From the NCBI GenBank assembly GCA_934670175.1, contig CAKUOX010000003.1, positions 1,279 through 65,278 of the forward strand: DNA of 64,000 nucleotides, given 5' to 3'. Both the position numbers and the translations under genes were made by a program. Shown here piece after piece: positions 7,480-22,675 of the stretch (position 1 is its first letter; each line of letters starts with the position of its first letter). The stretch comes from an uncultured Clostridia bacterium (GTDB lineage Bacteria; Bacillota; Clostridia; Christensenellales; Aristaeellaceae). Under the pieces are notes generated by a model. That model worked only from the letters and a program-made list of their open reading frames with translations, was not told the origin of the DNA and ran no database searches.

Positions 7480-7890
7480 CTACTTTTGATTCCGCCTTGA
7501 TGCTTCATACTTTTCGACCTTTGCATCATATCGTAATTGGGCAATTTTCTGTGCTACAAACGCCGCACTGCTAGCTATAAGTGAAATCCAACAAAACACA
7601 ACGAAGCCTCTATTTCCCTCCACATTTCCGCCTGTATATACCATGTACAATCCTATTACTGCAATAAGCAGAAATAAACCTGCGATTGCCCAAACAACGA
7701 ATGCATACATCGCCGGATTTTTCCCAACTGCATTCTGCAACTCCCGCTCTCTCGTTGCAACCTCATTTGCCATACGACGTTGTGCATCTATCCGAGTTTG
7801 GCAGTTCGATATCATCGTACATGCATCTTTATAATCGTTCAATTTCTTGAATAATTGTTTGCATCCATATACTTTCCTATTACAAAACAA
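7480..7890 (-). CDS. Hypothetical 2-TM membrane protein
   Basis: The ORF contains two hydrophobic spans, FVVWAIAGLFLLIAVIGLYMVY and FVVFCWISLIASSAAFVAQ. The start is ambiguous: TTG 7890, a TTG at 7842 overlapping the upstream stop as TTGA, or ATG 7815. Confidence 0.45.
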   Translation of the reverse strand: MFCNRKVYGCKQLFKKLNDYKDACTMISNCQTRIDAQRRMANEVATRERELQNAVGKNPAMYAFVVWAIAGLFLLIAVIGLYMVYTGGNVEGNRGFVVFCWISLIASSAAFVAQKIAQLRYDAKVEKYEASRRNQK

Positions 7891-8246
7891 TACTGAGCCT
7901 GGCCATAAATGTAATCCTTGTATTTTGTAGAAGCCAGGCTTGCCTGCCAGGTAATGGTAACATCACAGCGCCAGAATGTAAAACCCAATTGCATCTGCTG
8001 TGGTTGCGTGGTATTGACATTGACAATAGTCTTTCCCTCAGAGGCAAGATTCTTAGAGCGAGTCTGTATTTCAGCCTCAACACGTGCCGATAGCCTGATC
8101 CTATCCTGTTCCTGAACGGTAAAAAACACGGTGCCGCTATCTATTTCATATTGCATTTTCGTAGCCATCGGCTCACCACAGAACGGGCATGACTGAGCAT
8201 TTTCCGAAATACTGTGCTTGCAAACAGGGCATTGAATAAGCGCCAT
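7839..8246 (-). CDS. Zinc-ribbon domain protein, function unknown
   Basis: N-terminus MALIQCPVCKHSISENAQSCPFCGEP. SD-like AGGGAG lies upstream of the ATG. First gene of the islet operon. Confidence 0.55.
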   Translation of the reverse strand: MALIQCPVCKHSISENAQSCPFCGEPMATKMQYEIDSGTVFFTVQEQDRIRLSARVEAEIQTRSKNLASEGKTIVNVNTTQPQQMQLGFTFWRCDVTITWQASLASTKYKDYIYGQAQYCFVIGKYMDANNYSRN

Positions 8247-8304
8247 TAAACATCACTCCCTATAAATACGAAACGAATTTGATACGCGTTTGCGTATTTT
8301 TTGT

Positions 8305-8333
8305 AGTATACCACATCTTTTTCTATTACGCAA
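8305..8333 (-). promoter_or_regulatory. Sigma-70-type promoter of the three-gene islet
   Basis: The minus strand reads TTGCGT, 17 nt, TATACT. It is followed by a small ATACGC/GCGTAT hairpin in the leader. Confidence 0.45.
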
Positions 8334-8663
8334 GTGCGATTGTGTATTTATTGAAATATGTGTGTAGAATAATTCAAATGCAAATACATTACGGGTCAAT
8401 ATAAAATGTTTTCGTGATTATAAATGGATTCTCTGCTTTTTTTATTCCCACAGATTGTTTTAGGACAGTATAAATTACTGCTTCGTGAACTCGTTGAGAT
8501 TGTCTGTATTCAAGTCTATTCTTGTAAGCATTTCGTTGTGAGCATCAAGATCCGTCTTCGAATCAAACTTCACCAACTCAAAAATGGTTGCTGCAGTTGT
8601 TCATAAAGAAGAGCGAATGTGCATACATCGCAATTCGCTACATCTTAGTCCTCATATACAATC

Positions 8664-8805
8664 AAAACGCGATTCGGGCGCCTGACCCGGTCTTTGACCC
8701 CACACTCGCCTGCTGGGGCGTTCGCTCATAAGGCGATCTGCCTCCCCACTACTGACCCTCTCGGTAATTCTTAGCCGGCAGGACTTACTTCTAAGGCGCG
8801 CCATG
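8664..8805 (-). repeat. Promoterless 142-nt copy of the 3' part of the sRNA gene at 20571-20797 (direct repeat A)
   Basis: Colinear with 20573-20714, with no indels and 3 mismatches (8679, 8754, 8772). Identity ends abruptly at both edges. It ends in a U4 tract on the minus strand. Confidence 0.8.
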
Positions 8806-8872
8806 TTGGCATTCCAGTATATACATAACACCGAACATGGCAATACGGCCTTCCATCTGACCATGAATGGAC

Positions 8873-10414
8873 TCACGTTCTTCGATCCAAAACTTCCGGT
8901 GTGCTTGCCTCACCACGATATGCCTGTGGTGTCTTCCCATTGGCCTTTTTAAACACCTTTGAGAAATAGTTGGAATCCTTATACCCCACTTCCGCACTGA
9001 CCTCCGCAATGGAACGCGACGAATCCTTCAGCAGCTGCATGGCGTGTTCCATGCGCAAATGCGTAACGAATTCAATATAGCTCAATCCCGTTGTTTCCTT
9101 CAGGATGCGTCCAAGATAACCCTGTGAAAAGAAAAAACGTGCCGACAGGGCAGATAGGGGCACATCTCGATTGTAGTTGGCGTAGATATAATCCAATATC
9201 GGCCGAATACGGTTTGGCGCCTTCACAATCCCCTGCCTGTCTACCAGCAGATTCAGGCATTCACGGAAATAGGTGTTCAGCTCCTCCTTGCCATGAATAC
9301 GCATGTAAGAAGAAAGCTCTAACAGTTCCGAATCATTCTCCAGACCCGCGCGCGGCTCCTGATGGTTCAGTGTAACGAACAGATCAAACATGACCAGTTT
9401 TTGGCGTTCAAAGCTACCATGGGCAAAGCTGGCGTCCACCTCGCTCTGTATCATTGCCAGGACCTCAAAGGCGCGCTGCAAATCCTGACCTTGCAGCGCT
9501 TCGAGCAGCCTGAGTTCACTGTCAAACGGATAAGGATATTTTCTGCGTACATCAGCATCGCAACAGCACACATCCTCGTGCGAATCCATCAGTGCTACCG
9601 CTTGCATATAGCTATGACAGATTTCTCGAAGTGACGCATAGTGGGTGCCGATGCGAATGCGCATGTGCAGCTGAAAGCGCAGCTGCGCCTCCGAGCACAA
9701 TCCATGAAAAGTTTTCTGAAGCAGTTCTGCCTCCAGACCTTTTAGCATTAGCACAAACAGCCTCCTGCCGTGCCATAGTACGCGGGAGATTCCCCGACAG
9801 CGGCGACATAGCCATGACAGCACCTCATTCTGCGCATCCATATCAGTTTCGACGATGGCGATCATGCCCATCTCCGCCGAAATCCCGTGCATTTTTTGCA
9901 ACGTACGGATCATGTCCGGTGATCCTGCACGAATTGCATAGAACAACTCGTCCACCGGCTGATCTGGCATGCCAACGCTTCCAAGCGTATTGAGCCGGTC
10001 GATCAGGCGATGTTTCTTTTTTTCTACCAGCGTACATACCCGATGCATTTCCCGAATCAAATCTGTTTCCGAAACTGGCTTGACCATAAAGCCCAGCACG
10101 CCCAAATCAAGCGCTTCTTTGGCATGCTCAAAATAATCATAGGCCGATATGATAACAAAGCTGATATCGCTTCCTTCAGCGCGCAGCAGGCGTATAGCTT
10201 CCAATCCGCTAAGTTTGGGCATGTGGATATCCATCAACACAATATCAGGCGTATGCTCGCAGCAGAAGCGCACAGCATCCAGCCCGTTTTCAACCTCTCC
10301 GATCACGCGCAACCACGGTAACCCACGTGACAACATCAATCGATAAGCGTCGCGGTCAAGCTTTTCATCATCCACAATCAAAACGCTCAATTCATGTTCA
10401 GTCATTGCTGCCAC
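8873..10414 (-). CDS. Response regulator with AraC-type HTH output (YesN-like)
   Basis: Receiver motif DIVLMDIHMPKLSG. C-terminal AraC HTH with GYKDSNYFSKVFKK. Confidence 0.85.
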   Translation of the reverse strand: MAAMTEHELSVLIVDDEKLDRDAYRLMLSRGLPWLRVIGEVENGLDAVRFCCEHTPDIVLMDIHMPKLSGLEAIRLLRAEGSDISFVIISAYDYFEHAKEALDLGVLGFMVKPVSETDLIREMHRVCTLVEKKKHRLIDRLNTLGSVGMPDQPVDELFYAIRAGSPDMIRTLQKMHGISAEMGMIAIVETDMDAQNEVLSWLCRRCRGISRVLWHGRRLFVLMLKGLEAELLQKTFHGLCSEAQLRFQLHMRIRIGTHYASLREICHSYMQAVALMDSHEDVCCCDADVRRKYPYPFDSELRLLEALQGQDLQRAFEVLAMIQSEVDASFAHGSFERQKLVMFDLFVTLNHQEPRAGLENDSELLELSSYMRIHGKEELNTYFRECLNLLVDRQGIVKAPNRIRPILDYIYANYNRDVPLSALSARFFFSQGYLGRILKETTGLSYIEFVTHLRMEHAMQLLKDSSRSIAEVSAEVGYKDSNYFSKVFKKANGKTPQAYRGEASTPEVLDRRT

Positions 10415-11921
10415 CCTTTCTTTCCAGATAAAGGAACAACGTTACGTTCAGCCCATCCTCATTTTTCAGTTCTACTACGTCCTGTCGCTTGTAATAGTGC
10501 TGCAGGCGCTTAACAACATTCAACATACCCACATGTTTGTGGTCGGATATGTTGACATCAGGATCGTTGAACAGCGTCATGAGCGCCTCAAGTTTTTCCT
10601 GCGGCATACCGCAGCCGTTATCATGTATGCTGACGCAAACACAATTGTCGCCGCGCGTGACTGAAATATAGATCCGACCATCGGACATGCGATTGGCTAA
10701 TCCGTGGTTGTAGCAGTTTTCTACAATGGGCTGAAGCACCATGCGCGGCATGACAATCTCTGATAATCCAGGCTCAATGTCCGTCTGAATGGAAATACGG
10801 TTGCCGAAGCGCACACTTTGAACGTAGGTATAATCCGCCACATTGCGCAGCTCACCTGCCAAAGTGACGCTCGCATCACTCTGCCTGAAATTGTAGCGCA
10901 GCAGATCCGATATAACGCTACAAATCTCGCAGGTACGTTCCGCACCATCCAGATAGGCGGTATGATGCAGCGTACTCATGCAGTTGAACAAAAAGTGTGG
11001 ATTGATCTGCTCCTGAAGCCGCCTTAGTTCCAGCTGGTCGTACATGGTCTTGATGCGCAGGTTTTCTATCTGCCGCTCGTTCAGTTCCTGCACCATGCGC
11101 GAGCGCTTGCTGACCTCCTCGATGTTTTCCTGAATGGTTTGGCTCATGTTGAACATGGTATCCGAAAGAAGATTAAAGTCCTTTTCCTCATCAAAGCGCA
11201 GTTTTTCATCAGGATAGTTTCCTTCGGATATCTGCTGTGCCATTTCTGCCAGTTGATAAATCGGGTCAATAAAACGCCGATCCATGCAAATGAAAAACAG
11301 CAGTGCATAAGCGACAAAGCATATGGCAAACCCCGGCAAACAATACTTAAACAGATCCAGCTGGCGCGCAATCCGCTGTGCAAGAATGCTCACCTGCTCA
11401 TTCAAGGTGGCGGACAGCCGACTGGTCTCCAACAATATGTTTTCGGCAATGCCGTCCAGTCGTGCGGAAACGTTGCCCATATCTGCATAATCCTGTACGT
11501 TTATAGCCGCAATCAGGATTTCACCATGCCTTCGATAGGTTTCCAGCATATTTCGTGTATCACTGAGCAAATAGTAGGTATCGTAATTGTGGGCAGGTAT
11601 ATCAAGCTGGGCAAAACGCTGGATCAGCGTAGACATATCACTTTCCAGCGCCTTAATACGCTCTTCGGGCGCATAGGTAATCAGCGACATCAATTTCTGA
11701 TGAGTATCTCGGACACAGACGTCAGCCTCGCTTATTTCTACGCCCAATGCATTGATCTGGTCAAGCCGCACCGATACGTTGTGCAAATTGGTCAACAGCA
11801 CGAAGATCACTGCAAAAAACATCAGTCCGAGCAGTGCAGCGTAATAAATAAGCTTGCGTTTCAATGGTAACGTACGAAGTCTAAGAAACAGTTTTTTCAT
11901 AATACACATCAATATTCTCAC
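10398..11921 (-). CDS. Membrane sensor histidine kinase (LytS/YesM type)
   Basis: N-terminal TM, a HAMP-like linker, the His-kinase motif NPHFLFNCMSTL and the HATPase motif HDNGCGM. It overlaps the regulator by 17 nt. The start may be 11909 or 11900 instead. Confidence 0.85.
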   Translation of the reverse strand: MRILMCIMKKLFLRLRTLPLKRKLIYYAALLGLMFFAVIFVLLTNLHNVSVRLDQINALGVEISEADVCVRDTHQKLMSLITYAPEERIKALESDMSTLIQRFAQLDIPAHNYDTYYLLSDTRNMLETYRRHGEILIAAINVQDYADMGNVSARLDGIAENILLETSRLSATLNEQVSILAQRIARQLDLFKYCLPGFAICFVAYALLFFICMDRRFIDPIYQLAEMAQQISEGNYPDEKLRFDEEKDFNLLSDTMFNMSQTIQENIEEVSKRSRMVQELNERQIENLRIKTMYDQLELRRLQEQINPHFLFNCMSTLHHTAYLDGAERTCEICSVISDLLRYNFRQSDASVTLAGELRNVADYTYVQSVRFGNRISIQTDIEPGLSEIVMPRMVLQPIVENCYNHGLANRMSDGRIYISVTRGDNCVCVSIHDNGCGMPQEKLEALMTLFNDPDVNISDHKHVGMLNVVKRLQHYYKRQDVVELKNEDGLNVTLFLYLERKGGSND

Positions 11922-12864
11922 GGGTCAGTACCCGCATATCCACTTCGACCACATAGGGCAAACCGCCGTTTTGAATATAGTGAGCGAGTTCCTTCACAGC
12001 TGCACGACCTACCGAATAGGCATTTTCGGTAAGCAATGCACTAATGATCCCGATTTCCAGATAATCATATACCGTCTGGGATTCGCCGCAGCCGATCACA
12101 CATATGTCGCTCCTGCCAGCATCGCTCAGGCACTGGGCTACCGCTCCCGTAATAGTTTCATCCAGACAAAAGAACGAGTTATAGTGAAAACTGCTATCCA
12201 GAAGCTCCTTGGTCAGTTCATATGCATCGGCATTATTCAACTCACGCACATTCTCTGTGCCCATGTAATAGCCATCTTTCCCCCGCATGTACCTTGAAAA
12301 GCCCCTGATTTTATCCAGGCATTCGCCAGTCTGTCGATTCAGCGGATAGCTAATGATAGCCGTACGCGCACCATCGGGCATCATTTCGCATATCAACTGC
12401 GCAGCCCTTTCGCCAAATTGCTGATAATCCACGCCAATATGCACACGGCGCTGGCTACCGTAAATATCATCCACAATGGTGGCGATGGGGATTCCTTCCA
12501 GCGCAGCGCGATCGATCATTTTGCCTGTTTGCACTCTATCTGGGATGTTGGTAATAATGCCGTCAACCTGTGCATCGATAGCACGGGCAAGCGCCTCGAT
12601 ATGCAACGCCGATGCGCTTGATGCAAACTGTTCAAAGCTGATATAGATATCCATCTCATCAGCCATTATACGCATACCACGTTCGAGTTCAGCAGCAAAG
12701 GCACGATTATCGCCACTGTACAACACAGCGATGCGGCAGGACCTGGGCTGGTTGACGATGGAATCCTTATTCCTGCTCCAGCGGCAGGACATAACTATGA
12801 CTGCGATACTGCACAGCGCGAGCAGCGCCGACATCCACGCCAGCAGGTACTTTCGCTTGAACAT
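11881..12864 (-). CDS. Membrane-anchored periplasmic-binding-protein-like sensor partner (XylFII-like)
   Basis: An N-terminal TM is followed by a type I sugar-binding fold (IAVLYSGDN...GIITNIPD). It sits directly upstream of the kinase. Confidence 0.7.
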   Translation of the reverse strand: MFKRKYLLAWMSALLALCSIAVIVMSCRWSRNKDSIVNQPRSCRIAVLYSGDNRAFAAELERGMRIMADEMDIYISFEQFASSASALHIEALARAIDAQVDGIITNIPDRVQTGKMIDRAALEGIPIATIVDDIYGSQRRVHIGVDYQQFGERAAQLICEMMPDGARTAIISYPLNRQTGECLDKIRGFSRYMRGKDGYYMGTENVRELNNADAYELTKELLDSSFHYNSFFCLDETITGAVAQCLSDAGRSDICVIGCGESQTVYDYLEIGIISALLTENAYSVGRAAVKELAHYIQNGGLPYVVEVDMRVLTRENIDVYYEKTVS

Positions 12865-12893
12865 TCTGTCGACCCCCTACTGATCATTTTAAC

Positions 12894-12927
12894 AAAAAAG
12901 TCCGGAATTGCCAAGCGGCAATTCCAG
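12894..12927 (-). terminator. Intrinsic terminator after the SBP gene
   Basis: Minus strand GGAAUUGCC-GCUU-GGCAAUUCC followed by GGACUUUUUUG. Confidence 0.6.
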
Positions 12928-12946
12928 ACAGAAACTGCGATAGTGA

Positions 12947-13924
12947 TCAGAAGCTGAAACTATCAACATTTTCGGCGGTGATAATCAGCGGATCACCCAA
13001 AATGATTTCACCATTCGTAATGGAAATCTTGCCCCAACCTTCCAGTTCGGTACCATCAGTAACTTCTGTGCCCTTGATCAGCGCGTCAGCTACGCGAATC
13101 GTCAGCTCGCCGAATGCCTCCACGTCCCACAAACATGCAGAATAGATAGCGCCGCTCTTTAAATAAGCATTGCTCATGGAGGGCTCAACCGCGCCGCAAA
13201 CCACGATCTCACCGATCTTGCCAGCATCGATCACTGCCTGAGCGGCAGCTGGCGGCGCAGGAGAGGTAACGCCCAGAATACCCTTCAGATTTGGATAGGC
13301 AGAGATCAGGTTTTGAGCGATGGAATATGCCTTATCCTGATCGTCATCGCACGGTTCGACGGTCAGCAACGTCATTTCCGGATACGCCTCAGCAATCCGT
13401 ACCTTGCAGGCTTCTACCCACGCGGCGCAGTCTACGGCGGTCAACGCGCTCGTAATGATAGCGAACTCACCTTTTTCACCCATCGCTTTCGCCAGCTCGT
13501 CAGTCATAGCATAGCCAAACTGATCGTAGTTGATGCTGTTGACGAAGGCATCGCGGAAATCAGTCTGCACGTCGCAGCCCCAAGTAACGACCTTGATACC
13601 GGCCTGACGCGCCTTATTCAGCACAGGCAGGATAGAATCAGAATCTGTCGGCTGGATGCAGATAGCATTCACATGCTGATTAATCAGGTCGGTGACGATG
13701 TTAGCCTGAGAAACGGCGTCGACTTCGGTAGGACCGATGTAGTAAACGTCGACACCCAGTTCTTCACCAGCACGCTGAGCGCCAGTATTGGCCGCTTCAA
13801 AATAGGTAATACCTACCTGCTGCGGCACAAACGCAACCACGGGCTTGTCCTCTGCCAACGCAGTGAAGGCTCCGAAGAGCAGCATCAACGCGGCCAGAAA
13901 AACGGCGAGACACTTTTTGAACAT
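12947..13924 (-). CDS. ABC transporter sugar-type substrate-binding protein (LsrB/RbsB-like)
   Basis: Signal peptide followed by VAFVPQQVGITYFEAANTGAQ, with a type I PBP fold. Confidence 0.85.
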   Translation of the reverse strand: MFKKCLAVFLAALMLLFGAFTALAEDKPVVAFVPQQVGITYFEAANTGAQRAGEELGVDVYYIGPTEVDAVSQANIVTDLINQHVNAICIQPTDSDSILPVLNKARQAGIKVVTWGCDVQTDFRDAFVNSINYDQFGYAMTDELAKAMGEKGEFAIITSALTAVDCAAWVEACKVRIAEAYPEMTLLTVEPCDDDQDKAYSIAQNLISAYPNLKGILGVTSPAPPAAAQAVIDAGKIGEIVVCGAVEPSMSNAYLKSGAIYSACLWDVEAFGELTIRVADALIKGTEVTDGTELEGWGKISITNGEIILGDPLIITAENVDSFSF

Positions 13925-13970
13925 AACCAGAAACCTCCTTACAATAATTATCCGCAGTGCGGAAATCTAA

Positions 13971-14939
13971 TCAGTGGGTAGTCGCCCTGTCGCGGCGACG
14001 CATTTTCATGCCGGAAATCACAGCAGGCAATACGTTTTCATTCAATACCAGCACCGATATCAGCAATAGACCAAGTATAAATTGCTGGATATAGGGTGAA
14101 ACTCCGATATGGTTCAGGCCATTATTCAACAGCGAAAAGATAGCTACCCCCAGCAGCGCACCAATCGGTGAGCCGCTACCGCCAGCCATACTCGCGCCGC
14201 CCAACACCACCGCTGCAATACACTTCGTCTCATACGAGGCGCCCAAATCCAGGCGAGCTGTCGCTACGCGAGAAGACATAATGACGCCGGAAATCGCCGC
14301 CAACAGTGAACTGACAACATAGGCACTGGTAATGGTAGACGCGGTATTTACACCAGAATACTCCGTAGCGACTGGATTATTACCCACGGCATAGAGCTTG
14401 ACACCCCACGATGTACGCTTGAGCAGCAACGTCAGCACAATGGTGATAATGATCAGCAGCCACGTTTGAGCCGGCACGCCCAATATACTTTCCTGACCGA
14501 GGAACCAGTAACTGATCGGGAATCCCGATACGGCGTTGCCCTCACTAATAACATAGGAGATGCCTGTATACAGCATGGAAAGCGACAGCGTCATCAGCAT
14601 AGGAGCGACCTTCAGCCTTGAAATAAACAGCCCTGTGATCAATCCCATGAGCAGCGAGGCCAACAGAGCAACGATAACGGCTACTACGATCGGAACGCCC
14701 AACTTATATAATGAAATGATGATCAGCGACGTCAGGCCGCACACAGAGCCCATCGTCAGGTTGATACCGGATACCATGATGGCCAGCATCATACCATAGG
14801 CCATAATACCGAACTCTGCCATAGTGGTAGTAATGGACATAAGGTTGGCAACGTTCAGGAAATGCTCGCCGCCAATGGAAAATATAACCATCAGCACGAC
14901 GATCAGCGAAGCACAGATAATTTGGCTCAGCTTCTTCAT
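13971..14939 (-). CDS. ABC transporter permease (RbsC/LsrD-like)
   Basis: 322 aa and polytopic. It overlaps the upstream permease gene by 4 nt. Confidence 0.85.
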   Translation of the reverse strand: MKKLSQIICASLIVVLMVIFSIGGEHFLNVANLMSITTTMAEFGIMAYGMMLAIMVSGINLTMGSVCGLTSLIIISLYKLGVPIVVAVIVALLASLLMGLITGLFISRLKVAPMLMTLSLSMLYTGISYVISEGNAVSGFPISYWFLGQESILGVPAQTWLLIIITIVLTLLLKRTSWGVKLYAVGNNPVATEYSGVNTASTITSAYVVSSLLAAISGVIMSSRVATARLDLGASYETKCIAAVVLGGASMAGGSGSPIGALLGVAIFSLLNNGLNHIGVSPYIQQFILGLLLISVLVLNENVLPAVISGMKMRRRDRATTH

Positions 14940-15931
14940 GCATTAACGCCCCCTTCCGGGATCTCCATATCCACATCGATGCGTACCTTTTTGCGACTAG
15001 CATAAGCATTTTGCACCACGTTAACGACAATGATCAGAATCATCAGCGCGCCCTCAAAGAATTTCTGCCAATAGGTCGGCACATACAACAATACCAGCAG
15101 ATTTTCAAATATCTTCATTAAGATCACGCCAAATACCGTACCCACCGGGCTACCGATACCGCCCAGCACGCTGGTACCGCCCAGAATAACGGAAGCAACT
15201 ACTGTCATTTCCAGGTGGAGCGCGCCGCTTGGCTGGATGTTACCCAGACGGGAAGCATTAAGCAGACCTGCGAAGCCACACATCAAGCCGGTGTAAACGT
15301 ACACCAGCATCAAGGTTCGCCGCACATTGATGCCCGCGCGAATAGCTGCCTCAGTGTTTCCGCCTACGGCGTACACAGCGCGTCCAAAGCGCGTGTAACG
15401 CAGTATCCACCATGTGAATGCAACCAGCGCAACTGTGATATACACAGACCACGGCAGACCAAGAAACTTATCGCGCGTCAGGCCGGTTATGAAATCTGGC
15501 AGATTCATCAGCCACTGACTGCCCGTGATGAGCAACAGTAGGCCGCGATACATATTCTGCGTACCAATTGTGGCGATGAAGGGCGGCACCTTCAAATAGG
15601 CGATCAGGAGACCGTTTATAACGCCCATCAACAGCCCGCCAGCCAGACCGGCCAGCAGACACAAAGCCAGGCTACCCGACTGCGAAAGTGCGATAGCGCC
15701 GACAATGTATGCAGTACAGATCATCTCGGCAGCTACGGCAACTTCGATACCACAAGTGATAATGACCATCGTCATGCCACAGCCCAGCAGGATCGTTGGA
15801 ATGCTGTTATTAATGATGTTGGTCAGGTTGCTGATCTGCAAAAACGCAGGAGAGACAACGGATACTACAGCGCACAGGGCCACGATAATCAGCACCAGTG
15901 AAAATTCTCTGGTCTTGACGAGCTTTTTCAT
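14936..15931 (-). CDS. ABC transporter permease (RbsC/LsrC-like)
   Basis: 331 aa and polytopic. Confidence 0.85.
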   Translation of the reverse strand: MKKLVKTREFSLVLIIVALCAVVSVVSPAFLQISNLTNIINNSIPTILLGCGMTMVIITCGIEVAVAAEMICTAYIVGAIALSQSGSLALCLLAGLAGGLLMGVINGLLIAYLKVPPFIATIGTQNMYRGLLLLITGSQWLMNLPDFITGLTRDKFLGLPWSVYITVALVAFTWWILRYTRFGRAVYAVGGNTEAAIRAGINVRRTLMLVYVYTGLMCGFAGLLNASRLGNIQPSGALHLEMTVVASVILGGTSVLGGIGSPVGTVFGVILMKIFENLLVLLYVPTYWQKFFEGALMILIIVVNVVQNAYASRKKVRIDVDMEIPEGGVNA

Positions 15932-17481
15932 TTGCCCTTCCCCCCTGTTCGACTGCTCTGAAGTGCATATTGCATAATCTTTTCCTGTGTTGCGCTCGAA
16001 GCATTCATTTCAGTTACCATCCGCCCCCGCCGCATCACTGCGATCCGATCCGTCATGGTCAGCACCTCCTGTAGCTCTGAGGAAACCACCACGATTGCCA
16101 TGCCCTCGGATGCCAAACGCCGTAGCAGCTTGTGAATTTCAACCTTAGAGCCGATATCTACACCATTTGTAGGCTCATCTACCAGCAGTACCTTCGGTGC
16201 GGTGGCCAGCCATTTACCGATAACAATTTTCTGTTGGTTGCCGCCCGAAAACTCGCGCACCGCCCGAGTAGGAATACGCGGACGAACATCCATCTGTTCG
16301 ATCATCTCATTTGAAATTTTCTGAATCCGTTTTTTCTTCAGAAAACCAAATCGTGTCGTATTGGCGGAATAGTTTACCAACGCCATGTTTTCGTAGGTGT
16401 CAAACTGCATCACCAGCCCGCCATGCTGGCGATCCTCCGGCACATAGGAGATACCCAGCCGTTTGGCCATGCTGGAATTTGTGATATTTACCGGCGTACC
16501 GTCCAGTATTATACTGCCGCTGTCAGGCCGATGCAAGCCAAAGAGCGTTTGAATGACCTCTGTGCGTCCCGAGCCTACCAATCCGGTTATGCCCAGAATC
16601 TCGCCCTGACGTACGCAGAAGCTGATATCATGGTAATAGCCCGCCTTAGACAGATGCTTTACCTCCAATACCACCTTTTCCCCCGCTGCAGACTCATCGT
16701 TCAGGTTGGCATAGCTGATATCGCGGCCCACCATCATGTGAATAATTTCAGCCTCATCCAGCTCGTTGGTTGGCTTGGAACCGATATACCTGCCGTCGCG
16801 CAGCACTGTGACTGTATCAGACAGGCGTTTAACCTCATCCAACTTATGGCTGATAAACAACACCGATATACCGTCCGCCTTCAGCCCTTCGATAATACCG
16901 AACAGGTTCTCAACCTCTTGCCTGGAAAGTGAAGCCGTCGGCTCGTCCATGATAATTAAACGCGAATTGTAGGCGATCGCTCTGGCAATGGCTACCAGCT
17001 GTTGATTGGCAATGCTCAACGAGCCGAGCAGATCCGATGGTTTCAGCGGAATATTTAACCGCGTCAGTGTTTTCTCAGCAATCTCATTGTACTGTTTCCA
17101 ATGAACCAATCCGGTTTTACCCTTGCCGATGCAGATGTTTTCTGCCACGGTCAGGTTCTGAAACAGGCACAGATCCTGATAGATCACGCTTATGCCGCGA
17201 TTCATGCTCTCGTTAATATCACTCAAGCGAATCTGCTGGCCATCCACCAGAATCTCGGTGCCAGGATCAGGTGTATATACACCCGACAGGATTTTAATCA
17301 ATGTTGATTTACCCGCACCGTTTTCGCCTACCAGCGCATGCACCTCTCCGCGGCGTACATGCAACTGCACATCGTCCAATGCCTTAACGCCCGGAAAGGT
17401 CTTGCTGACATGTGATATGGAAAGAAAGAAATCCTCCACTATCCTCGCCTCCTTTCCTTTTTCAGAAGCCCCGTCCGACAA
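15928..17481 (-). CDS. Sugar ABC transporter ATP-binding protein (two fused ABC domains)
   Basis: Walker A GENGAGKSTL and signature LSGGNQQK. A second, degenerate ABC domain is present. Confidence 0.9.
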   Translation of the reverse strand: MSDGASEKGKEARIVEDFFLSISHVSKTFPGVKALDDVQLHVRRGEVHALVGENGAGKSTLIKILSGVYTPDPGTEILVDGQQIRLSDINESMNRGISVIYQDLCLFQNLTVAENICIGKGKTGLVHWKQYNEIAEKTLTRLNIPLKPSDLLGSLSIANQQLVAIARAIAYNSRLIIMDEPTASLSRQEVENLFGIIEGLKADGISVLFISHKLDEVKRLSDTVTVLRDGRYIGSKPTNELDEAEIIHMMVGRDISYANLNDESAAGEKVVLEVKHLSKAGYYHDISFCVRQGEILGITGLVGSGRTEVIQTLFGLHRPDSGSIILDGTPVNITNSSMAKRLGISYVPEDRQHGGLVMQFDTYENMALVNYSANTTRFGFLKKKRIQKISNEMIEQMDVRPRIPTRAVREFSGGNQQKIVIGKWLATAPKVLLVDEPTNGVDIGSKVEIHKLLRRLASEGMAIVVVSSELQEVLTMTDRIAVMRRGRMVTEMNASSATQEKIMQYALQSSRTGGKGK

Positions 17482-18823
17482 AATGCTGCAAACTCACAGG
17501 CAAATCATTAAGCACTTTCACATCGTGGCCATATTTGCCCAGCGTTTTTTCTACCAACACATAATCCATACCAGGGATCACGATATCGTTCCAATGGTTG
17601 CCGAAGCCGCGTACTGCCACATCCAACATAGTAACGATCTGACTGCCAAGCGGCTCATTTGAATTAAGCGTGATTGCACCGTAGAACTCCTGACACTCGG
17701 TGTAGCCGCCGTTATGTGTGCCGGTATACGGTTTTTGCAAAGTCATGTCGATCTGCTTACCAATGCGGCTGGATACCTCGCTGGATTTGGAGGCAAAATA
17801 ATCCACCAATGCCTGTTCCTGAAGCCGCGCGGGCAGATTCTCACGGGCAACGCGCACATAAGCGTCGAGTCCAATACGATATGCTTCTTCCGTAAAATCG
17901 AACCAGTATTTCTGATCATCAGTACGCTTATCGGGATGATCCACACATACCACACTTGCGCGTTCGCATGCAGTCAGGCCATCCCACTTCGGGCCGACAC
18001 CCAGCAGCACATAATCTCCTTCCTGAATACGACGATTTACAGCTTTGCCTATCAGTGTGCGCGTATTTACGCCTGAAGCGACGCTGATATCAAAACCAAG
18101 CTGCTCCACGCCGAGCTCGCAAGCTACGACATGCGCCCACTGAGCCACCTGCGTTTCATACATTCCCGGACGAATAACGCTGGTCATAGCCTCCATCATC
18201 ACGTCACAGATCTTCGCGGCGATCTCTGTCATGTGCATTTCATCGTCGGATTTGATATACTTGAGCTTATAGTATATCTCCTGCCCGTCTATCACCTTGG
18301 AAGCGTCGCCAAAATAATCCACCAGATAAGTGTAAATACTGGCAGGAAGTACCTCGCGCGGAGTAAGCAGCGCAATGTTACTCGGACGGCAGCCGCAGGC
18401 TTCCTCTAGAACATCCTCCACGCGGCATGCCGCTACTGGATAATCCTCATCAGCCAGCTTCAGCATTTCCACCTTGCGTACTTTACAACCAGAGCGCGGT
18501 GCCAGCTGTTCTGCGCAATAACCGCCTTCAAGTCCGGCCAGCAGGAAAAAACCATTCTTGCCTATGATGCCTGCTACCGGCTCAACACTGATATTGGTGT
18601 TGCCGCCAAGATAAGGTACGTCGCCTGAATACTGTTCATCGCTGTATACAAAACCGCAATCGTAGCCGTTCTTTCTCAGTGCGTCGATCAGACGACGATG
18701 ACGCAGCTCAAATTCCTCTGGTCCAAGTCGCATCTCTTTATCAAAAGATGGTGCCCGTCCGAGAATCTCTTCAACGATGTTCGCCTGCTTTCTCCACAAA
18801 CCTGCGTCAAACATAGGGTACAC
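17462..18823 (-). CDS. M24-family (creatinase/prolidase fold) protein with non-canonical active-site residues
   Basis: 453 aa, with a creatinase-N-like N-terminus and a pita-bread C-terminus. GAGGTG SD. First gene of the transporter operon. Confidence 0.7.
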   Translation of the reverse strand: MYPMFDAGLWRKQANIVEEILGRAPSFDKEMRLGPEEFELRHRRLIDALRKNGYDCGFVYSDEQYSGDVPYLGGNTNISVEPVAGIIGKNGFFLLAGLEGGYCAEQLAPRSGCKVRKVEMLKLADEDYPVAACRVEDVLEEACGCRPSNIALLTPREVLPASIYTYLVDYFGDASKVIDGQEIYYKLKYIKSDDEMHMTEIAAKICDVMMEAMTSVIRPGMYETQVAQWAHVVACELGVEQLGFDISVASGVNTRTLIGKAVNRRIQEGDYVLLGVGPKWDGLTACERASVVCVDHPDKRTDDQKYWFDFTEEAYRIGLDAYVRVARENLPARLQEQALVDYFASKSSEVSSRIGKQIDMTLQKPYTGTHNGGYTECQEFYGAITLNSNEPLGSQIVTMLDVAVRGFGNHWNDIVIPGMDYVLVEKTLGKYGHDVKVLNDLPVSLQHFVGRGF

Positions 18824-19218
18824 CTCAATTCCACTGTTTTTGTAAATCTCGCTGAGACGCTCACAGCGTCACAGCCACAATTCTATTTCCTGATTCTATT
18901 GTATCGCATGCGCCTCAGAATTCAATGGAAATAGTACACGGCAATCTGCACAAATGCCATAGCTTGCACTGCGTTTTTATAATCAGTCCGTTTTGAATGA
19001 GTAATAATCAGATATCAGGTTTGATTTTTACCTATTAGGACAATTTCTCACATCTCATCCACGCTTTATATTGCAAATCGCATCATATGCAAATGTTACA
19101 TTTTGTCTGATTCTTTATCGTTTCACACTCAAAACATAATATATTTAGCTATCTATATTATTTTAAGCCGCAGATTTTCAGCCATTTGCTTCGTTTTGAC
19201 CGCATTCCCCCCACATTA

Positions 19219-19247
19219 TTGACAATTTGGCGCTTTATATCTACAAT
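19219..19247 (+). promoter_or_regulatory. Sigma-70-type promoter of the plus-strand M24 gene
   Basis: TTGACA, 17 nt, TACAAT. Confidence 0.5.
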
Positions 19248-19306
19248 TAGTACAGTCGTTATATCCTTTTTACTTATACTGATGCCACACAGAAAGGAGA
19301 ATGCCC

Positions 19307-20479
19307 ATGAATGTCCCTCATATTTCCAAAGTCGAATTTGCTCAACGCGTTAAAAACACCCAGAAAGCCATGCAGGATGCCGGCCTCGATATTCTGCTTA
19401 CTTACGGTAACGAAGCCGAACCGCAATATGTACGTTATTATTCGGACTACTGGCCTTCGTTTGAATCAGCCATGGTAATGATCCCACTCAGCGGAGATCC
19501 GATCCTGCTTATCGGCCCTGAATCATTGACGATGGCTCAATACTGGTCGGTCATTGAACGCATTGAGCGCATCAAGCTTCTACGCGAATCTTCCGAACCG
19601 GAATACCCTGGCGAAAAACTCAACTCCCTTTATAACTTGTTTGGCGAACACCTGTCCCCTGCTTCAAACCGTCGCATCGGCATTTGCGGCTATCCGCTCA
19701 TGTATGCACCGGTGTACCAGGGCATTTTGCAGGCAGCGTCGGCGTTTGGCTGTGAAGTTGTACGTTCTGAGCAATTGGTAATCCGCCAGAAATTGATTAA
19801 ATCACCGGCAGAAATTGAGATCATGCGGCATGCGGCCAAGATCAGCGAAGCTGCATGCATAAAAGTCATCCAGAATCTGCGTCCGGGCATGACTGAGACA
19901 CAGGTGGTAGCCATTGCTGAGGCAGAAATACGCGCACTGGGCGCTGAAAACGAAGCTTATCCCATGTGGGTGCTCAGCGGCAGCAACACCACGCACGCCA
20001 TCGGTCGCCCCGCCCCTGACAGAGTAATTGGCAAAAACGATTTGGTAATGCTGCAGATTGGTGCGCGTGTCAGTGGTTACGCCTCGAGCTTCGGCCGACC
20101 CGTGATCATTGGAAAAATTCCGGATGATGCACGCGCGTTGGTCGAAACGGGACTTGAGGCGCACCTCCGCACATTCGACTGGCTCAAGTCGGGCACTCCT
20201 GCCCGTGAAGTGGATCGTCTTTACCGTGAATTCCTGAAAAACCACGGTGCAGAGGGCTGTAATCTGTATGGTCCCTGCCATGGCACGGGTCTAATGGAGG
20301 GTGAACACCCATGGATCGAAGCTAATTCGGACTACCTGTTGGAGCCCGGTCTCACTTTTATGGCAGACACCTTCTTGAAGCGCGACGGCTACGGCCTGCG
20401 CTGGGAAGATCAGCTTGCGATTACTAAAACCGGTACCGATGTGTTCACCAACGCTTATCTTGAAATAATTCAGCTTTAA
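19307..20479 (+). CDS. M24-family (Xaa-Pro peptidase/creatinase-like) protein
   Basis: Pita-bread motifs CHGTGL, GEHPW, LEPGLTF and RWEDQL. I prefer the ATG at 19307, 6 nt after GGAGA. The track start at 19301 abuts the SD. Confidence 0.75.
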   Translation: MNVPHISKVEFAQRVKNTQKAMQDAGLDILLTYGNEAEPQYVRYYSDYWPSFESAMVMIPLSGDPILLIGPESLTMAQYWSVIERIERIKLLRESSEPEYPGEKLNSLYNLFGEHLSPASNRRIGICGYPLMYAPVYQGILQAASAFGCEVVRSEQLVIRQKLIKSPAEIEIMRHAAKISEAACIKVIQNLRPGMTETQVVAIAEAEIRALGAENEAYPMWVLSGSNTTHAIGRPAPDRVIGKNDLVMLQIGARVSGYASSFGRPVIIGKIPDDARALVETGLEAHLRTFDWLKSGTPAREVDRLYREFLKNHGAEGCNLYGPCHGTGLMEGEHPWIEANSDYLLEPGLTFMADTFLKRDGYGLRWEDQLAITKTGTDVFTNAYLEIIQL

Positions 20480-20498
20480 CCCAGCTTTACATGCAACA

Positions 20499-20531
20499 CG
20501 CCGGAGCTACCATGTCATCGTAGCTCCGGCG
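20499..20531. terminator. 12-bp hairpin after the M24 gene
   Basis: CGCCGGAGCTAC / GTAGCTCCGGCG with a 9-nt loop. The T-tract is weak. Confidence 0.5.
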
Positions 20532-20570
20532 CCTGTTTCCCAGATATGCTTTGATCCTATCATTACAGGA

Positions 20571-20797
20571 AAAAAACGCGATTCGGGTGCCTGACCCGGT
20601 CTTTGACCCCACACTCGCCTGCTGGGGCGTTCGCTCATAAGGCGATCTGCCTCCCCACTACTAACCCTCTCGGTAATTCTCAGCCGGCAGGACTTACTTC
20701 TAAGGCGCGCCATGCTCACCGGACTTTTGCCGGTTTACGTGGATCGTTTTGCCCGCGCCTGGCATCGACTTTCAACCGCAGACGCGCCCGAACCGCA
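20571..20797 (-). ncRNA. Unassigned structured sRNA candidate (~227 nt); its 3' 142 nt form direct repeat B
   Basis: It has its own consensus promoter upstream. The 5' arm (20784-20796) pairs with the 3' arm (20578-20590). An internal helix pairs 20754-20760 with 20703-20709, with a nested ACCGG/CCGGU hairpin. It ends in U7. The 5' end is predicted, not mapped. Confidence 0.55.
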
Positions 20798-20802
20798 TTC
20801 CT

Positions 20803-20831
20803 ATTATATGTATTTTTCCTCTTCCCGTCAA
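20803..20831 (-). promoter_or_regulatory. Consensus sigma-70 promoter of the sRNA candidate
   Basis: The minus strand reads TTGACG, 17 nt, TATAAT. The -35 begins 6 nt after the glmS stop codon. Confidence 0.6.
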
Positions 20832-20836
20832 GCCGC

Positions 20837-22675
20837 TTATTCCACAGTGACGCTCTTGGCAAGATTGCGCGGCTTATCCACATCCAGTCCGCGCGCCACG
20901 CTGACATAATAGGCCAGCAACTGAAGCGGAATGACCGCCAGACTCGCGGCAAAGTGTGGATCTGTACGCGGCAGGTAAACGGTAAAGTCCGCTGTATCCT
21001 CCAGATTATAGTTCCCGGCGGTCGTCAGACCCATCAGATAGGCGCCGCGGCTCTTGCATTCTACCATGTTGCTGATCGTCTTTTCATAGAGCGCAGGCTG
21101 CGTCAGAACGCCCGCCACCAGCGTACCGTTTTCAATCAGGCTGATGGTACCATGCTTCAGCTCGCCCGCCGCATATGCCTCGGAATGCACATAGCTGATC
21201 TCCTTGAGCTTCAGGCTGCCTTCAAGACCCACGGCATAATCTATGCCGCGGCCGATGAAGAACGCATCGTGCGCGTTGGCATACTTGGCTGCGAACCACT
21301 GGATGCGCTCCTTTTCTTCCAGCAGGCGGTGTATCTTTTCCGGAATGGCCGTCAGCTCCGCCGTCATCCTGTCCAGCTCTTCCTGCGAAACCGTACCGCG
21401 AACGCGCGCGAGCTCCATTGCCAGCATGTAGCCTGCGATCAGTTGCGTGCTGTACGCCTTGGTGGTCGCCACGGCGATCTCGGGACCCGCCAGCGTGTAG
21501 AGCACATGGTCGGCCTCCCGCGCGATGGACGAGCCCAGCACATTCACGATCGCCAGCACCGGCAGCCCCTGCAGCTTGACTTCGCGCAGCGCCGCCAGAC
21601 TGTCCGCCGTCTCTCCCGACTGGCTGATAATGACCGCCAGCCCGTTTTTCGAAAGCACCGGCCGGCGATAGCGGAATTCGGAAGCGACTTCCACCCGCAC
21701 GGGCACGCGCGCCAGATCCTCAATAACGTATTGCAGCGCCATGCCAACGTGGTAGGCTGAGCCGCAGGCCACGATATAAATCTGATCCACGTCCCGCAGC
21801 AGCGCCGCATCCAGTCCGGAGGCGCTCAGATCCACATGTCTGTCGGTCAGCATGGAGGCAACGGTGTTGCGAACTGCATCGGGCTGCTCGTGGATCTCCT
21901 TGATCATGAAGTGCTCGTAGCCGCCCTTTTCCGCCGCCTCGGCGTCCCATTCGATATTAACCGGCTGCTTTTCGATCGGTTCCTGATCCACAGTGCAGAA
22001 CTTTACGCCATCGCGGCTCAGGCGCGCGATCTCCATATCATTCATGTAGCACGCGCGGCGCGTGTACTTGAGGATCGCCGTTACATCCGACGCGAGATAG
22101 GATGCGTCATCGGCAATGCCCACCAGCATCGGCACATTGCAGCGCGCGGCGAATATCTCATCCGGATAATCGTGGAACAGCACAGCCAGCGCATAGCTGC
22201 CGCGAATGCGCATCATGCTGCGCGCAATGGCCTCCACCGGACCGCCGCGATACTTTTTATAATAGTAGTCGATCAGCTTCGCCGCCACCTCGGTATCCGT
22301 ATCGCTGTAGAATTCATAGCCGTTTTTGATCAGCTTTTCGCGCAGCTCCAGATAATTCTCAATGATGCCGTTGTGCACCGCGACCACGGCATTATCGTCG
22401 CTCACATGGGGATGCGCGTTTTTCGTGGACGGCTCGCCGTGCGTCGCCCAGCGCGTATGACCGATGCCGCAGCAGCCGTGCAGCGCCGCGCCGTCATCCG
22501 TCATTTCCTGCAATACGCGCAGCCGCCCCTTGGCCTTGACCACCTGCACGTCGCCCGCGCCGTCGCGCACGGCGATGCCGGCCGAATCATAGCCGCGGTA
22601 TTCCAGCTTCGAAAGTCCATCCAGCAAAATCGGCGCCGCCTGTTCGCCGCCGACATATCCAACGATTCCACACAT
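20837..22675 (-). CDS. glmS: Glutamine--fructose-6-phosphate aminotransferase
   Basis: 612 aa, with N-terminal MCGIVGY, two SIS domains and a C-terminal KSVTVE. Confidence 0.95.
   Translation of the reverse strand: MCGIVGYVGGEQAAPILLDGLSKLEYRGYDSAGIAVRDGAGDVQVVKAKGRLRVLQEMTDDGAALHGCCGIGHTRWATHGEPSTKNAHPHVSDDNAVVAVHNGIIENYLELREKLIKNGYEFYSDTDTEVAAKLIDYYYKKYRGGPVEAIARSMMRIRGSYALAVLFHDYPDEIFAARCNVPMLVGIADDASYLASDVTAILKYTRRACYMNDMEIARLSRDGVKFCTVDQEPIEKQPVNIEWDAEAAEKGGYEHFMIKEIHEQPDAVRNTVASMLTDRHVDLSASGLDAALLRDVDQIYIVACGSAYHVGMALQYVIEDLARVPVRVEVASEFRYRRPVLSKNGLAVIISQSGETADSLAALREVKLQGLPVLAIVNVLGSSIAREADHVLYTLAGPEIAVATTKAYSTQLIAGYMLAMELARVRGTVSQEELDRMTAELTAIPEKIHRLLEEKERIQWFAAKYANAHDAFFIGRGIDYAVGLEGSLKLKEISYVHSEAYAAGELKHGTISLIENGTLVAGVLTQPALYEKTISNMVECKSRGAYLMGLTTAGNYNLEDTADFTVYLPRTDPHFAASLAVIPLQLLAYYVSVARGLDVDKPRNLAKSVTVE

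What the first reader, a model, noticed from the sequence alone, without database searches (positions are those of the whole stretch)
8664..20714. 142-nt direct repeats exactly 11,909 bp apart bracket a lower-G+C cargo segment beside glmS (an island inserted into an sRNA gene?)
Positions 8664-8805 and 20573-20714 are colinear, in the same orientation, with no indels. They differ at only 3 positions: 8679 C vs 20588 T, 8754 G vs 20663 A, and 8772 T vs 20681 C. Identity stops abruptly on both sides. The 20.6-kb copy is the 3' two-thirds of a promoter-bearing RNA gene, described in the next finding. The 8.7-kb copy lacks that gene's 5' third and its promoter, so it looks like a displaced 3' fragment.

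The enclosed 11.8 kb is visibly lower in G+C than the flanks. Spot counts of single 60-nt lines gave about 47 percent at 12001 versus about 77 percent at 2101. The segment carries a self-contained sensing, uptake and catabolic module. This is the scar left when an integrative element whose attP mimics the 3' end of an RNA gene inserts into that gene, as with tRNA and tmRNA islands. Here the target is an unassigned sRNA. I can find no integrase, transposase or recombinase ORF between or next to the repeats.
Basis: partly seen in the sequence, partly recalled or inferred. Interest (0 to 1): 0.75.

Follow-up and report, generated by a model that had tools for sequence, protein, structure and literature searches.

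The report
Integrase-less island inserted in raiA RNA gene
An 11.9-kb block of foreign sugar-sensing and uptake genes has inserted into the end of a conserved non-coding RNA gene (raiA) the way islands insert into tRNA genes, yet it carries no enzyme of its own to do so; other strains of the same species lack it exactly at the repeat.

Summary
In detail: 8664-8805 and 20573-20714 are 142-nt direct repeats with 3 mismatches, and no other repeat like them occurs in the window. The "unassigned sRNA" is a full-length raiA motif RNA (Rfam RF03072, 20792->20582, minus strand) downstream of glmS. Copy B is its 3' two-thirds plus 9 nt. Copy A is a promoterless 3' fragment.

The enclosed 11.8 kb is compositionally foreign (GC 0.50 vs 0.59; GC3 0.53-0.62 vs 0.73-0.82). 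It carries a histidine kinase/AraC-type response regulator pair, a sugar-type ABC transporter and two M24 hydrolases, but no recombinase.

Two independent metagenome contigs of the same species (one of 307 kb) show the empty site: the flanks are joined through exactly one 142-mer. Their SNP pattern fits a crossover inside raiA.

Separately, a family of Clostridium temperate phages places a tyrosine integrase directly against raiA (attL in 4 loci; attP-type 33-38-nt raiA fragments in 2-3 viral contigs). raiA is therefore a genuine attachment site, which the raiA papers I read do not report.

Best reading: a CIME-like, integrase-less island at a raiA attB, moved by a trans-acting integrase or by RecA across the 142-nt homology. 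It is a new member of a known kind and of moderate interest.

The parts
20803..20831 (-). sigma-70-type promoter of raiA (TTGACG-17-TATAAT)
   Evidence: 11 of 12 consensus match. Both hexamers are conserved in relative L008.
20582..20792 (-). intact raiA motif RNA gene (RF03072). The 5' third is native. At least the last ~16 nt of the 3' end came from the island.
   Evidence: cmscan gives 196.8 bits over model positions 1-209, against a gathering score of 101.3. The raiA of the empty-site strains scores 201.7 bits.
20573..20714 (-). direct repeat copy B (attL): raiA nt ~81-209 plus 9 nt downstream
20589..20662 (.). inferred crossover interval: the 74 nt identical in both copies between SNP1 and SNP2 (equals 8680-8753 in copy A)
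   Evidence: The empty sites carry C,A,C, which is copy A type at SNP1 and copy B type at SNPs 2 and 3. The interval overlaps the 33-38-nt raiA block used by the phage attP sites.
8806..20572 (.). island body, 11,767 bp of foreign cargo
   Evidence: GC 0.499 and GC3 0.53-0.62, against 0.59 and 0.73-0.82 for the host. Absent from L096 and L097.
8664..8805 (-). direct repeat copy A (attR): displaced, promoterless 3' fragment of raiA
   Evidence: Partial raiA hit of 81 bits. nhmmer matches model positions 77-208.
19301..20479 (+). M24-family hydrolase (Xaa-Pro peptidase/creatinase-like), convergent with raiA, in the position an integrase would normally occupy
   Evidence: PF00557 7e-36. Below cut-off for every NCBIfam equivalog.
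17462..18823 (-). second, divergent M24-family protein; first gene of the transporter operon
   Evidence: PF00557 6e-17. The M24 gene pair is conserved in L098 and L100.
12947..17481 (-). monosaccharide-type ABC transporter: ATPase 15928-17481, permeases 14936-15931 and 13971-14939, binding protein 12947-13924
   Evidence: Pfam ABC_tran, BPD_transp_2 x2, Peripla_BP_4. Nearest NCBIfam models are xylose/arabinose/ribose/rhamnose/AI-2 transporters, all below cut-off.
8873..12864 (-). three-component sensor: extra binding protein 11881-12864, histidine kinase 10398-11921, response regulator with AraC-type HTH 8873-10414
   Evidence: Pfam Peripla_BP_4; His_kinase + HATPase_c; Response_reg + HTH_18
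7076..8663 (.). low-G+C (0.40) spacer downstream of the raiA site, outside the island and also present in empty-site strains. Holds small ORFs 7149-7361, 7480-7890 and 7839-8246.
20837..22675 (-). glmS, the host gene directly upstream of raiA
   Evidence: Pfam GATase_6/7 + SIS x2. Synteny with L008-L010.

Best explanation
The segment 8806-20572, plus one copy of the 142-mer, is a horizontally acquired genomic island. It entered the chromosome by a single Campbell-type crossover inside the 3' two-thirds of the raiA non-coding RNA gene.

The incoming DNA carried its own copy of raiA nt ~81-209 plus 9 nt (the attP). Recombination with the chromosomal raiA (the attB) rebuilt an intact gene at one end (attL, copy B). 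That gene now ends in island-derived sequence, which introduces a C.A mismatch in stem P1. The native 3' end was left as a dead fragment at the other end (attR, copy A).

The island encodes no recombinase, so it is a CIME-like element: att sites retained, integration genes absent. Its insertion and loss must depend on one of two things: a raiA-specific integrase supplied in trans, or the host's homologous recombination acting on the 142-nt repeat.

Shown: the repeat anatomy, the foreign composition, exact presence/absence polymorphism within the species, and the use of raiA as attB by integrase-bearing phages.

Inferred: the direction of the event in each lineage, the crossover interval, and the identity of the catalyst.
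For: 1. Anatomy. The repeat equals raiA model nt ~81-209 and ends 9 nt after the gene. The intact gene with its promoter is at one end and a promoterless fragment at the other.

2. Empty sites. L097 (307-kb contig) aligns to window 25433-20573 and to 8805-1, with the two alignments overlapping by exactly 142 nt. L096, from another sample and assembler, shows the same junction.

3. SNP pattern. Copy A is C,G,T; copy B is T,A,C; both empty sites are C,A,C. This is what attB(C,A,C) x attP(T,G,T) gives with a crossover in the 74-nt identical stretch.

4. Imported 3' end. In all occupied strains the intact raiA has A opposite C in P1. In the empty strains it is G-C, and the raiA score is 201.7 against 196.8 bits.

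5. Foreign composition.

6. Signs of mobility. The island copies of two occupied lineages differ by 1.09%, while their chromosomal flanks differ by 2.24% (Fisher p=0.004). An empty lineage lies closer to one occupied lineage (1.05%) than the two occupied lineages lie to each other.

7. Precedent at the same gene. Four loci have raiA followed about 100 nt later by a convergent tyrosine integrase with ImmA and XRE genes: viral contig L007, C. intestinale, C. estertheticum and C. autoethanogenum. Viral contigs L006 and L088 have only the last 33-38 nt of raiA next to the integrase, which is the attP layout.

8. Integrase-less islands that keep their att repeats are a described class, the CIMEs (PMC5704250, PMC3146451).
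Against: No integrase, excisionase, relaxase or remnant of one was found in the island or in any large ORF of the 64-kb window.

The arms between cargo genes and the repeat are only 67 and 93 nt, which leaves no room for decayed mobility genes.

No circular or attP form of this island was found.

The closest relatives of the cargo (79% nt identity, and more distant ones) sit at unrelated loci with no raiA and no integrase. There is therefore no evidence of an island family built on this backbone.

The 142-nt block is about four times longer than the phage attP blocks, and those phages belong to low-G+C Clostridium, not to this lineage.

SNP2 is polymorphic among copy B sequences (L090 has G). 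The SNP-based crossover inference therefore needs either a polymorphic attB, gene conversion or a variable crossover point.

The empty sites could equally be revertants produced by repeat-mediated deletion.
Confidence: 0.8

Rival explanations
1. Purely homology-driven island. No site-specific recombinase is or ever was involved. A circular or circularised DNA carrying 142 nt of raiA integrates by RecA-dependent single crossover and is lost by recombination between the repeats. The strong conservation of raiA serves as a portable homology anchor.
For: No recombinase in cis or in the window. The repeat is long (142 nt), well beyond the 33-38 nt used by the integrase-bearing phages. The inferred exchange lies in the longest identical stretch (74 nt). 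Copy B of lineage L090 (T,G,C) could reflect a different crossover point from the window's (T,A,C), which a fixed-site integrase would not give.
Against: The repeat's outer edge coincides with the RNA gene's 3' end (+9 nt). That is the hallmark of elements adapted to an attB and is not expected of a random homology patch. It does not explain how cargo first became joined to a precisely trimmed raiA 3' end. The L090 difference is a single base, which mutation, gene conversion or a polymorphic attB also explains. This is a sub-variant of the best explanation (same topology, different catalyst) more than a full alternative.
Confidence: 0.3
2. The island is the ancestral state. It was fixed long ago and is not mobile. 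The empty sites are simple deletions by recombination between two old direct repeats.
For: A deletion between window-type copies with exchange between SNP1 and SNP2 gives exactly the C,A,C seen in L096 and L097. On the glmS side the empty lineage nests between two occupied lineages, so one loss is more parsimonious than two gains.
Against: It still requires an original insertion at raiA, given the foreign GC and GC3 and the absence of the island from sister species L008, where glmS-raiA is followed by different genes. The island copies are significantly less diverged than the flanks between the two occupied lineages (1.09% vs 2.24%, p=0.004), which argues for lateral spread over purely vertical descent. 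That test compared only 1.6 kb of island.
Confidence: 0.25
3. Transposon-type insertion or local segmental duplication, with the 142-mer as a target-site or replication-slippage duplication and not an att site.
For: Direct repeats flank the insert and no integrase is present.
Against: No transposase was found. No terminal inverted repeats lie at the island ends. From my own knowledge, a 142-nt target duplication is far beyond those of known transposases. The repeat is trimmed to the RNA gene's 3' end. The SNP pattern would require parallel changes.
Confidence: 0.03
4. Assembly artefact: either the occupied arrangement in the window or the empty junctions arise from mis-joining at a repeat.
For: Short-read contigs L002 and L003 break inside the 74-nt shared stretch. 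L096 has only ~2x coverage and carries the hybrid SNP pattern a chimeric path would give.
Against: The occupied junctions are each crossed by independent contigs (L001, L090 and L004). The empty junction is reproduced in a 307-kb contig from a different sample (L097). L097 differs from L096 by only 0.1% and has 8.8 kb and 4.9 kb of colinear flank on the two sides.
Confidence: 0.03

Closest known systems
Genomic islands integrated at the 3' end of tRNA and tmRNA (ssrA) genes, e.g. the ssrA-specific islands of Dehalococcoides (PMC3146451)
   Same: The target is a single-copy, conserved structured RNA gene. The direct repeat is made of the gene's 3' end. The intact gene is restored at one end and a fragment left at the other. 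The cargo is low-G+C and strain-specific. A diagnostic base difference separates the functional gene from the repeats. Some of those islands also lack an integration module.
   Different: The target here is raiA (RF03072), not a tRNA or tmRNA. The repeat is 142 nt against about 20 nt in Dehalococcoides. There is a single island, not a tandem array. No integrase-bearing sibling island was found in this lineage.
CIMEs (cis-mobilizable elements) of streptococci, as defined in PMC5704250
   Same: The element is flanked by attL and attR and has no integration or transfer genes.
   Different: CIMEs are recognised as decay products of known ICEs or IMEs and are mobilised by accretion with a related ICE. 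Here no parent element, no remnant of mobility genes and no tandem partner is visible. The cognate integrase is hypothetical.
Clostridium temperate phages with a tyrosine integrase abutting raiA
   Same: They use the same RNA gene and the same end of it. Their attP block (raiA nt ~171-208) falls inside the island's inferred crossover interval.
   Different: They carry the integrase next to attL along with ImmA/XRE and phage genes. The identity block is only 33-38 nt. The hosts are low-G+C Clostridium. No protein is shared with the island.

Membership tests
raiA motif RNA (Rfam RF03072) | Full-length match to the covariance model above the gathering score (101.3 bits) | tested here: met
   196.8 bits over model positions 1-209 at 20792-20582. 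Copy A gives only a partial hit of 81 bits, below threshold.
raiA motif RNA (Rfam RF03072) | Independent transcription unit with its own promoter | tested here: inconclusive
   A near-consensus TTGACG-17-TATAAT lies at 20831-20803 and is conserved in L008. No expression data are available.
Island integrated at the 3' end of a structured RNA gene (tRNA/tmRNA type) | The direct repeat consists of the 3' part of the target gene and ends at or just past its 3' end | tested here: met
   The repeat covers raiA nt ~81-209 plus 9 nt.
Island integrated at the 3' end of a structured RNA gene (tRNA/tmRNA type) | Intact gene at one boundary, promoterless fragment at the other | tested here: met
Island integrated at the 3' end of a structured RNA gene (tRNA/tmRNA type) | Empty site with a single copy of the repeat in related strains | tested here: met
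   L097 (307 kb) and L096 join the flanks with an overlap of exactly 142 nt.
Island integrated at the 3' end of a structured RNA gene (tRNA/tmRNA type) | Composition deviates from the host | tested here: met
   GC 0.499 vs 0.59; GC3 0.53-0.62 vs 0.73-0.82.
Island integrated at the 3' end of a structured RNA gene (tRNA/tmRNA type) | Integrase gene inside the island next to an att site | tested here: not met
   All nine island ORFs have other Pfam assignments. No recombinase family was found in any large ORF of the window. phmmer with the raiA-phage integrases was negative.
CIME (cis-mobilizable element) | attL and attR are retained while integration and transfer genes are absent | tested here: met
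CIME (cis-mobilizable element) | Derived by decay from an ICE or IME with the same att specificity | tested here: inconclusive
   No remnants were seen and the arms are only 67 and 93 nt. Relatives of the cargo lack raiA and an integrase. raiA-specific integrases do exist, but in Clostridium phages.
CIME (cis-mobilizable element) | Excision and transfer when a cognate integrase or ICE is supplied | not testable with these tools
   This needs an experiment or read-level detection of circles.
Transposon | Transposase and terminal inverted repeats | tested here: not met
   No transposase family. No inverted repeat pairs the two island ends.
Prophage | Phage structural, lysis or lysogeny genes | tested here: not met
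   The cargo is a two-component system, an ABC transporter and M24 hydrolases. PHROGs gave no informative hits.

The most novel reading that the evidence does not exclude
raiA (ModT) is an unrecognised, recurrent attachment site for mobile elements across Clostridia, comparable to tRNA and tmRNA genes. At least two kinds of element exploit it. One is a family of temperate phages with a dedicated tyrosine integrase and a 33-38-nt core. The other is integrase-free islands that carry a long (142-nt) raiA 3' segment and spread between strains by homologous recombination alone, using the extreme conservation of the RNA as a portable landing pad. Each insertion replaces the 3' end of the RNA with an element-borne version, so mobile elements would be a source of sequence change in raiA.
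Probability: 0.3. Interest if true: 0.6.

Novelty: new member of a known kind. Interest (0 to 1): 0.45.

Why it matters
raiA/ModT is one of the most widespread bacterial structured RNAs whose function is still unknown. The papers I read describe it as a single-locus gene and do not mention mobile elements (PMC10861870, PMC11706538, PMC12968392). No held paper combines raiA with attB/integrase or with integration-site terms in a relevant way.

Showing that phages and an island use its 3' end as attB has four consequences:

- It puts raiA in the same class as tRNA and tmRNA genes: single-copy, conserved, and not to be disrupted.
- It explains truncated raiA hits as att scars.
- It shows that elements can overwrite the RNA's 3' end; here this creates a P1 mismatch.
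- It gives a natural presence/absence system in a gut Clostridia species for asking how an island without an integrase moves.

For mobile-element biology it adds one more target gene and one more CIME-like case. That extends a known principle and does not establish a new one.

Tried and rejected
1. A third, decayed raiA fragment that would make the 1.6-kb low-G+C spacer an older island. None was found with cmscan at E<=1 over 5000-21000, with nhmmer, or with a 25-mer allowing 3 mismatches.

2. An extension of raiA homology upstream of copy A. It is not above shuffles.

3. An empty site in GTDB relatives found through glmS (the single genome-contig scan). The nearest species, L008, has glmS-raiA but different genes downstream, so it shows a synteny break and not an empty site. 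L009 and L010 have no raiA after glmS, and the other 77 loci have none.

4. raiA fragments in GenBank phages by blastn. No match.

5. Relatives of the island through its M24 gene. The gene recurs with ABC transporters and PTE genes at unrelated loci, never with raiA or an integrase.

6. My first inference was that copy A is wholly native because it matches L008 at all three SNPs. I dropped it after the empty sites proved to be C,A,C and L090's copy B proved to be T,G,C.

7. Homology between the spacer's Zn-ribbon ORF and the Zn-ribbon gene next to the phage attP. Only the 23-residue zinc ribbon aligns.

8. Terminal inverted repeats at the island ends. None.


Full report
**Observation**

A pairwise alignment and the repeat finder confirm two colinear 142-nt direct repeats, 8664-8805 (copy A) and 20573-20714 (copy B). 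No other repeat of this kind exists in the window. A 25-mer from the repeat occurs twice, against zero expected. Identity ends sharply: the 67 nt on the island side of copy A are no more similar to the raiA 5' part than shuffled sequence is (p=0.41).

**What the RNA is**

A scan against Rfam finds a complete raiA motif RNA (RF03072) on the minus strand at 20792->20582. It scores 196.8 bits against a gathering score of 101.3. A TTGACG-17-TATAAT promoter lies at 20831-20803. The gene sits directly downstream of glmS (20837-22675, minus strand). Copy B corresponds to model nt ~81-209 plus 9 nt past the gene's end. Copy A is a partial, promoterless hit of 81 bits.

**What lies between the repeats**

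All nine ORFs have clear assignments:

| Coordinates (strand) | Assignment |
|---|---|
| 8873-10414 (-) | Response regulator with AraC-type HTH |
| 10398-11921 (-) | Histidine kinase |
| 11881-12864 (-) | Extra periplasmic binding protein |
| 12947-13924 (-) | Binding protein of the ABC transporter |
| 13971-14939 and 14936-15931 (-) | Two permeases |
| 15928-17481 (-) | Duplicated ATPase |
| 17462-18823 (-) | M24-family hydrolase |
| 19301-20479 (+) | M24-family hydrolase |

The ABC transporter is of the monosaccharide type. None of the nine is a recombinase. Pfam scans of the remaining large ORFs of the 64-kb window find no recombinase either, and phmmer with the raiA-phage integrases is negative.

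The island body has GC 0.499 and GC3 0.53-0.62. Host flanks have GC 0.59 and GC3 0.73-0.82. A separate 1.6-kb stretch at GC 0.40 (7076-8663) lies outside copy A.

**The insertion is real and polymorphic**

Contigs from near-identical strains cross each junction of the occupied state: L001 and L090 cross copy B, and L004 crosses copy A. Other contigs break inside the repeat (L002, L003).

A metagenome scan with the raiA 5' part returned L096. It aligns to window 5623-8805 and then to 20573-20957, with the two alignments sharing exactly the 142-mer. L096 has about 2x coverage, and its SNP pattern is the one a chimeric path would give, so I looked for independent support.

A 255-aa ORF is intact in L096 but split in the window. 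Searching with it led to L097, a 307-kb contig from another sample. Its gene order is PBP-glmS-raiA-255 aa ORF-70 aa ORF-Zn-ribbon gene-IscS-ThiI-MrfA. It aligns to window 25433-20573 (98.1%) and 8805-1 (98.5%), again overlapping by exactly 142 nt. L096 and L097 differ by 0.1%. The island is therefore absent, precisely at the repeat, in another lineage of the same species.

**Reading the three SNPs**

On the plus strand the states are:

| Sequence | SNP1, SNP2, SNP3 |
|---|---|
| Copy A | C,G,T |
| Copy B | T,A,C |
| Both empty sites | C,A,C |
| Copy B of the 2%-divergent occupied lineage L090 | T,G,C |

The simplest account is attB(C,A,C) x attP(T,G,T), with exchange in the 74-nt identical stretch 20589-20662. 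A deletion between the two repeats would give the same empty-site sequence, so the direction of the event is not settled by this.

SNP1 is consistent everywhere. Occupied strains have an A in the RNA opposite C in stem P1; cmscan flags that pair as non-canonical, and the score is 196.8 bits. Empty strains have G-C and score 201.7 bits. At least the last ~16 nt of the present gene were therefore supplied by the island. I withdrew an earlier inference that copy A is wholly native.

**Signs of mobility**

On the glmS side, the divergences are:

| Comparison | Divergence |
|---|---|
| Window lineage vs L090 lineage (both occupied) | 2.24% |
| Window lineage vs empty lineage | 1.86% |
| L090 lineage vs empty lineage | 1.05% |
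| Island right end, window vs L090 | 1.09% (17/1558) |

The island's 17/1558 compares with 105/4683 for the flank (Fisher p=0.004). This suggests the island moved between lineages more recently than the lineages split, or that an empty lineage lost it. The island comparison covers only 1.6 kb.

**raiA as an attachment site elsewhere**

A conserved raiA 3' pattern hits four IMG/VR contigs:

- L007 has a full raiA followed about 100 nt later by a convergent tyrosine integrase (PF00589, 4e-18), then ImmA and XRE genes.
- L006 and L088 have only the last 33-38 nt of raiA next to the integrase, with lysis or other phage genes on the far side. This is the attP layout.
- L089 has a similar fragment at a contig end.

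The integrase has 69 homologues at E<=1e-40. All three that I inspected show comFC-raiA (full length, 188-202 bits) facing int-ImmA-XRE. They are in C. intestinale CP059378, C. estertheticum CP086249 and C. autoethanogenum RFAQ01000001. The phage core (raiA nt ~171-208) lies inside the island's inferred crossover interval.

GenBank phages gave no blastn match. None of the raiA papers I read mentions integration, and text searches combining raiA with attB/integrase or with integration-site terms found nothing relevant.

**Mechanism**

The topology is a Campbell-type insertion at the 3' end of an RNA gene, as for tRNA and tmRNA islands. The outer edge of the repeat, trimmed to the gene's end, is the signature of an element adapted to that attB.

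What is missing is the catalyst. Integrase-less elements that keep attL and attR are known as CIMEs, and similar integrase-less islands exist at ssrA in Dehalococcoides (PMC5704250, PMC3146451). I therefore favour a CIME-like island served in trans.

The main variant is RecA-dependent recombination across the unusually long 142-nt homology. Four points speak for caution:

- The arms are only 67 and 93 nt.
- No decayed mobility genes are present.
- No parent element was found.
- Relatives of the cargo (79% nt identity and below) sit at unrelated loci without raiA or an integrase.

Transposition is rejected because there is no transposase and there are no terminal inverted repeats. An assembly artefact is rejected because independent contigs support both the occupied and the empty state.

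**Verdict**

The target RNA is raiA. The element is a new member of the known class of RNA-gene-targeting islands, of the integrase-less kind. The wider point, that raiA serves as attB for a phage integrase family, appears not to be reported in the literature I could search. It is of moderate interest.

Noticed in passing
window 7076-8663: A 1.6-kb stretch at GC 0.40 (ORF GC3 0.37-0.44) lies between the raiA site and the host Zn-ribbon gene, outside the island. It is also present in the empty-site strains. It could be older foreign DNA that entered at raiA, but no distal raiA fragment survives.
   Followed up: partly
window 7480-8246 (-) vs L096 1858-2625 (-): A single 255-aa ORF (N-terminal zinc ribbon, C-terminal membrane segment) in the empty-site strains is split into two overlapping ORFs (7839-8246 and 7480-7890) in the window and in L003/L004. 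This looks like a frameshift in the occupied lineage.
   Followed up: partly
window 8800-8841: An imperfect palindrome (25-nt arms, 72% complementary) straddles the inner boundary of copy A. It could be the response-regulator gene's terminator or a protein-binding site at the att border.
   Followed up: no
window 40860-41038 (-): A cobalamin riboswitch (RF00174, 91 bits) lies upstream of an operon. The operon holds a xylose-isomerase-like TIM-barrel protein followed by the cobT-, cobU- and cobS-type genes and a histidine phosphatase gene (36430-40890).
   Followed up: no
window 31450-31545: Short tandem degenerate repeats rich in ACGCCG/GAGCCG (Thr/Pro-type coding repeats) lie inside an ORF with no Pfam match (30988-32277, minus strand).
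   Followed up: no
window 20573-20581 vs 8655-8663: The island changes the sequence just after raiA. Occupied strains have a run of seven U after the P1 3' strand (CGCGUUUUUUU). Empty strains have four (CGCGUUUUGAUUG). This might alter 3'-end formation.
   Followed up: no
L097 5-3780: The uvrA/uvrB region of the 307-kb empty-site contig is only 89% identical to the window, with 117 gap openings and fragmented ORFs, while the adjacent 4.9 kb has a single gap. This suggests local long-read indel errors or a low-coverage patch.
   Followed up: no
L101, L102, L104 (Clostridium genomes): In three Clostridium genomes the prophage integrase abuts raiA in the canonical RecD2-(340 aa)-comFC-raiA neighbourhood. 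Prophage insertion there separates raiA from whatever lay downstream of it, which may matter for studies of raiA gene context.
   Followed up: partly
L008 15044-15142: A NiCo riboswitch (RF02683, 73 bits) lies 3 kb downstream of raiA in the sister species, in a region not syntenic with the window.
   Followed up: no
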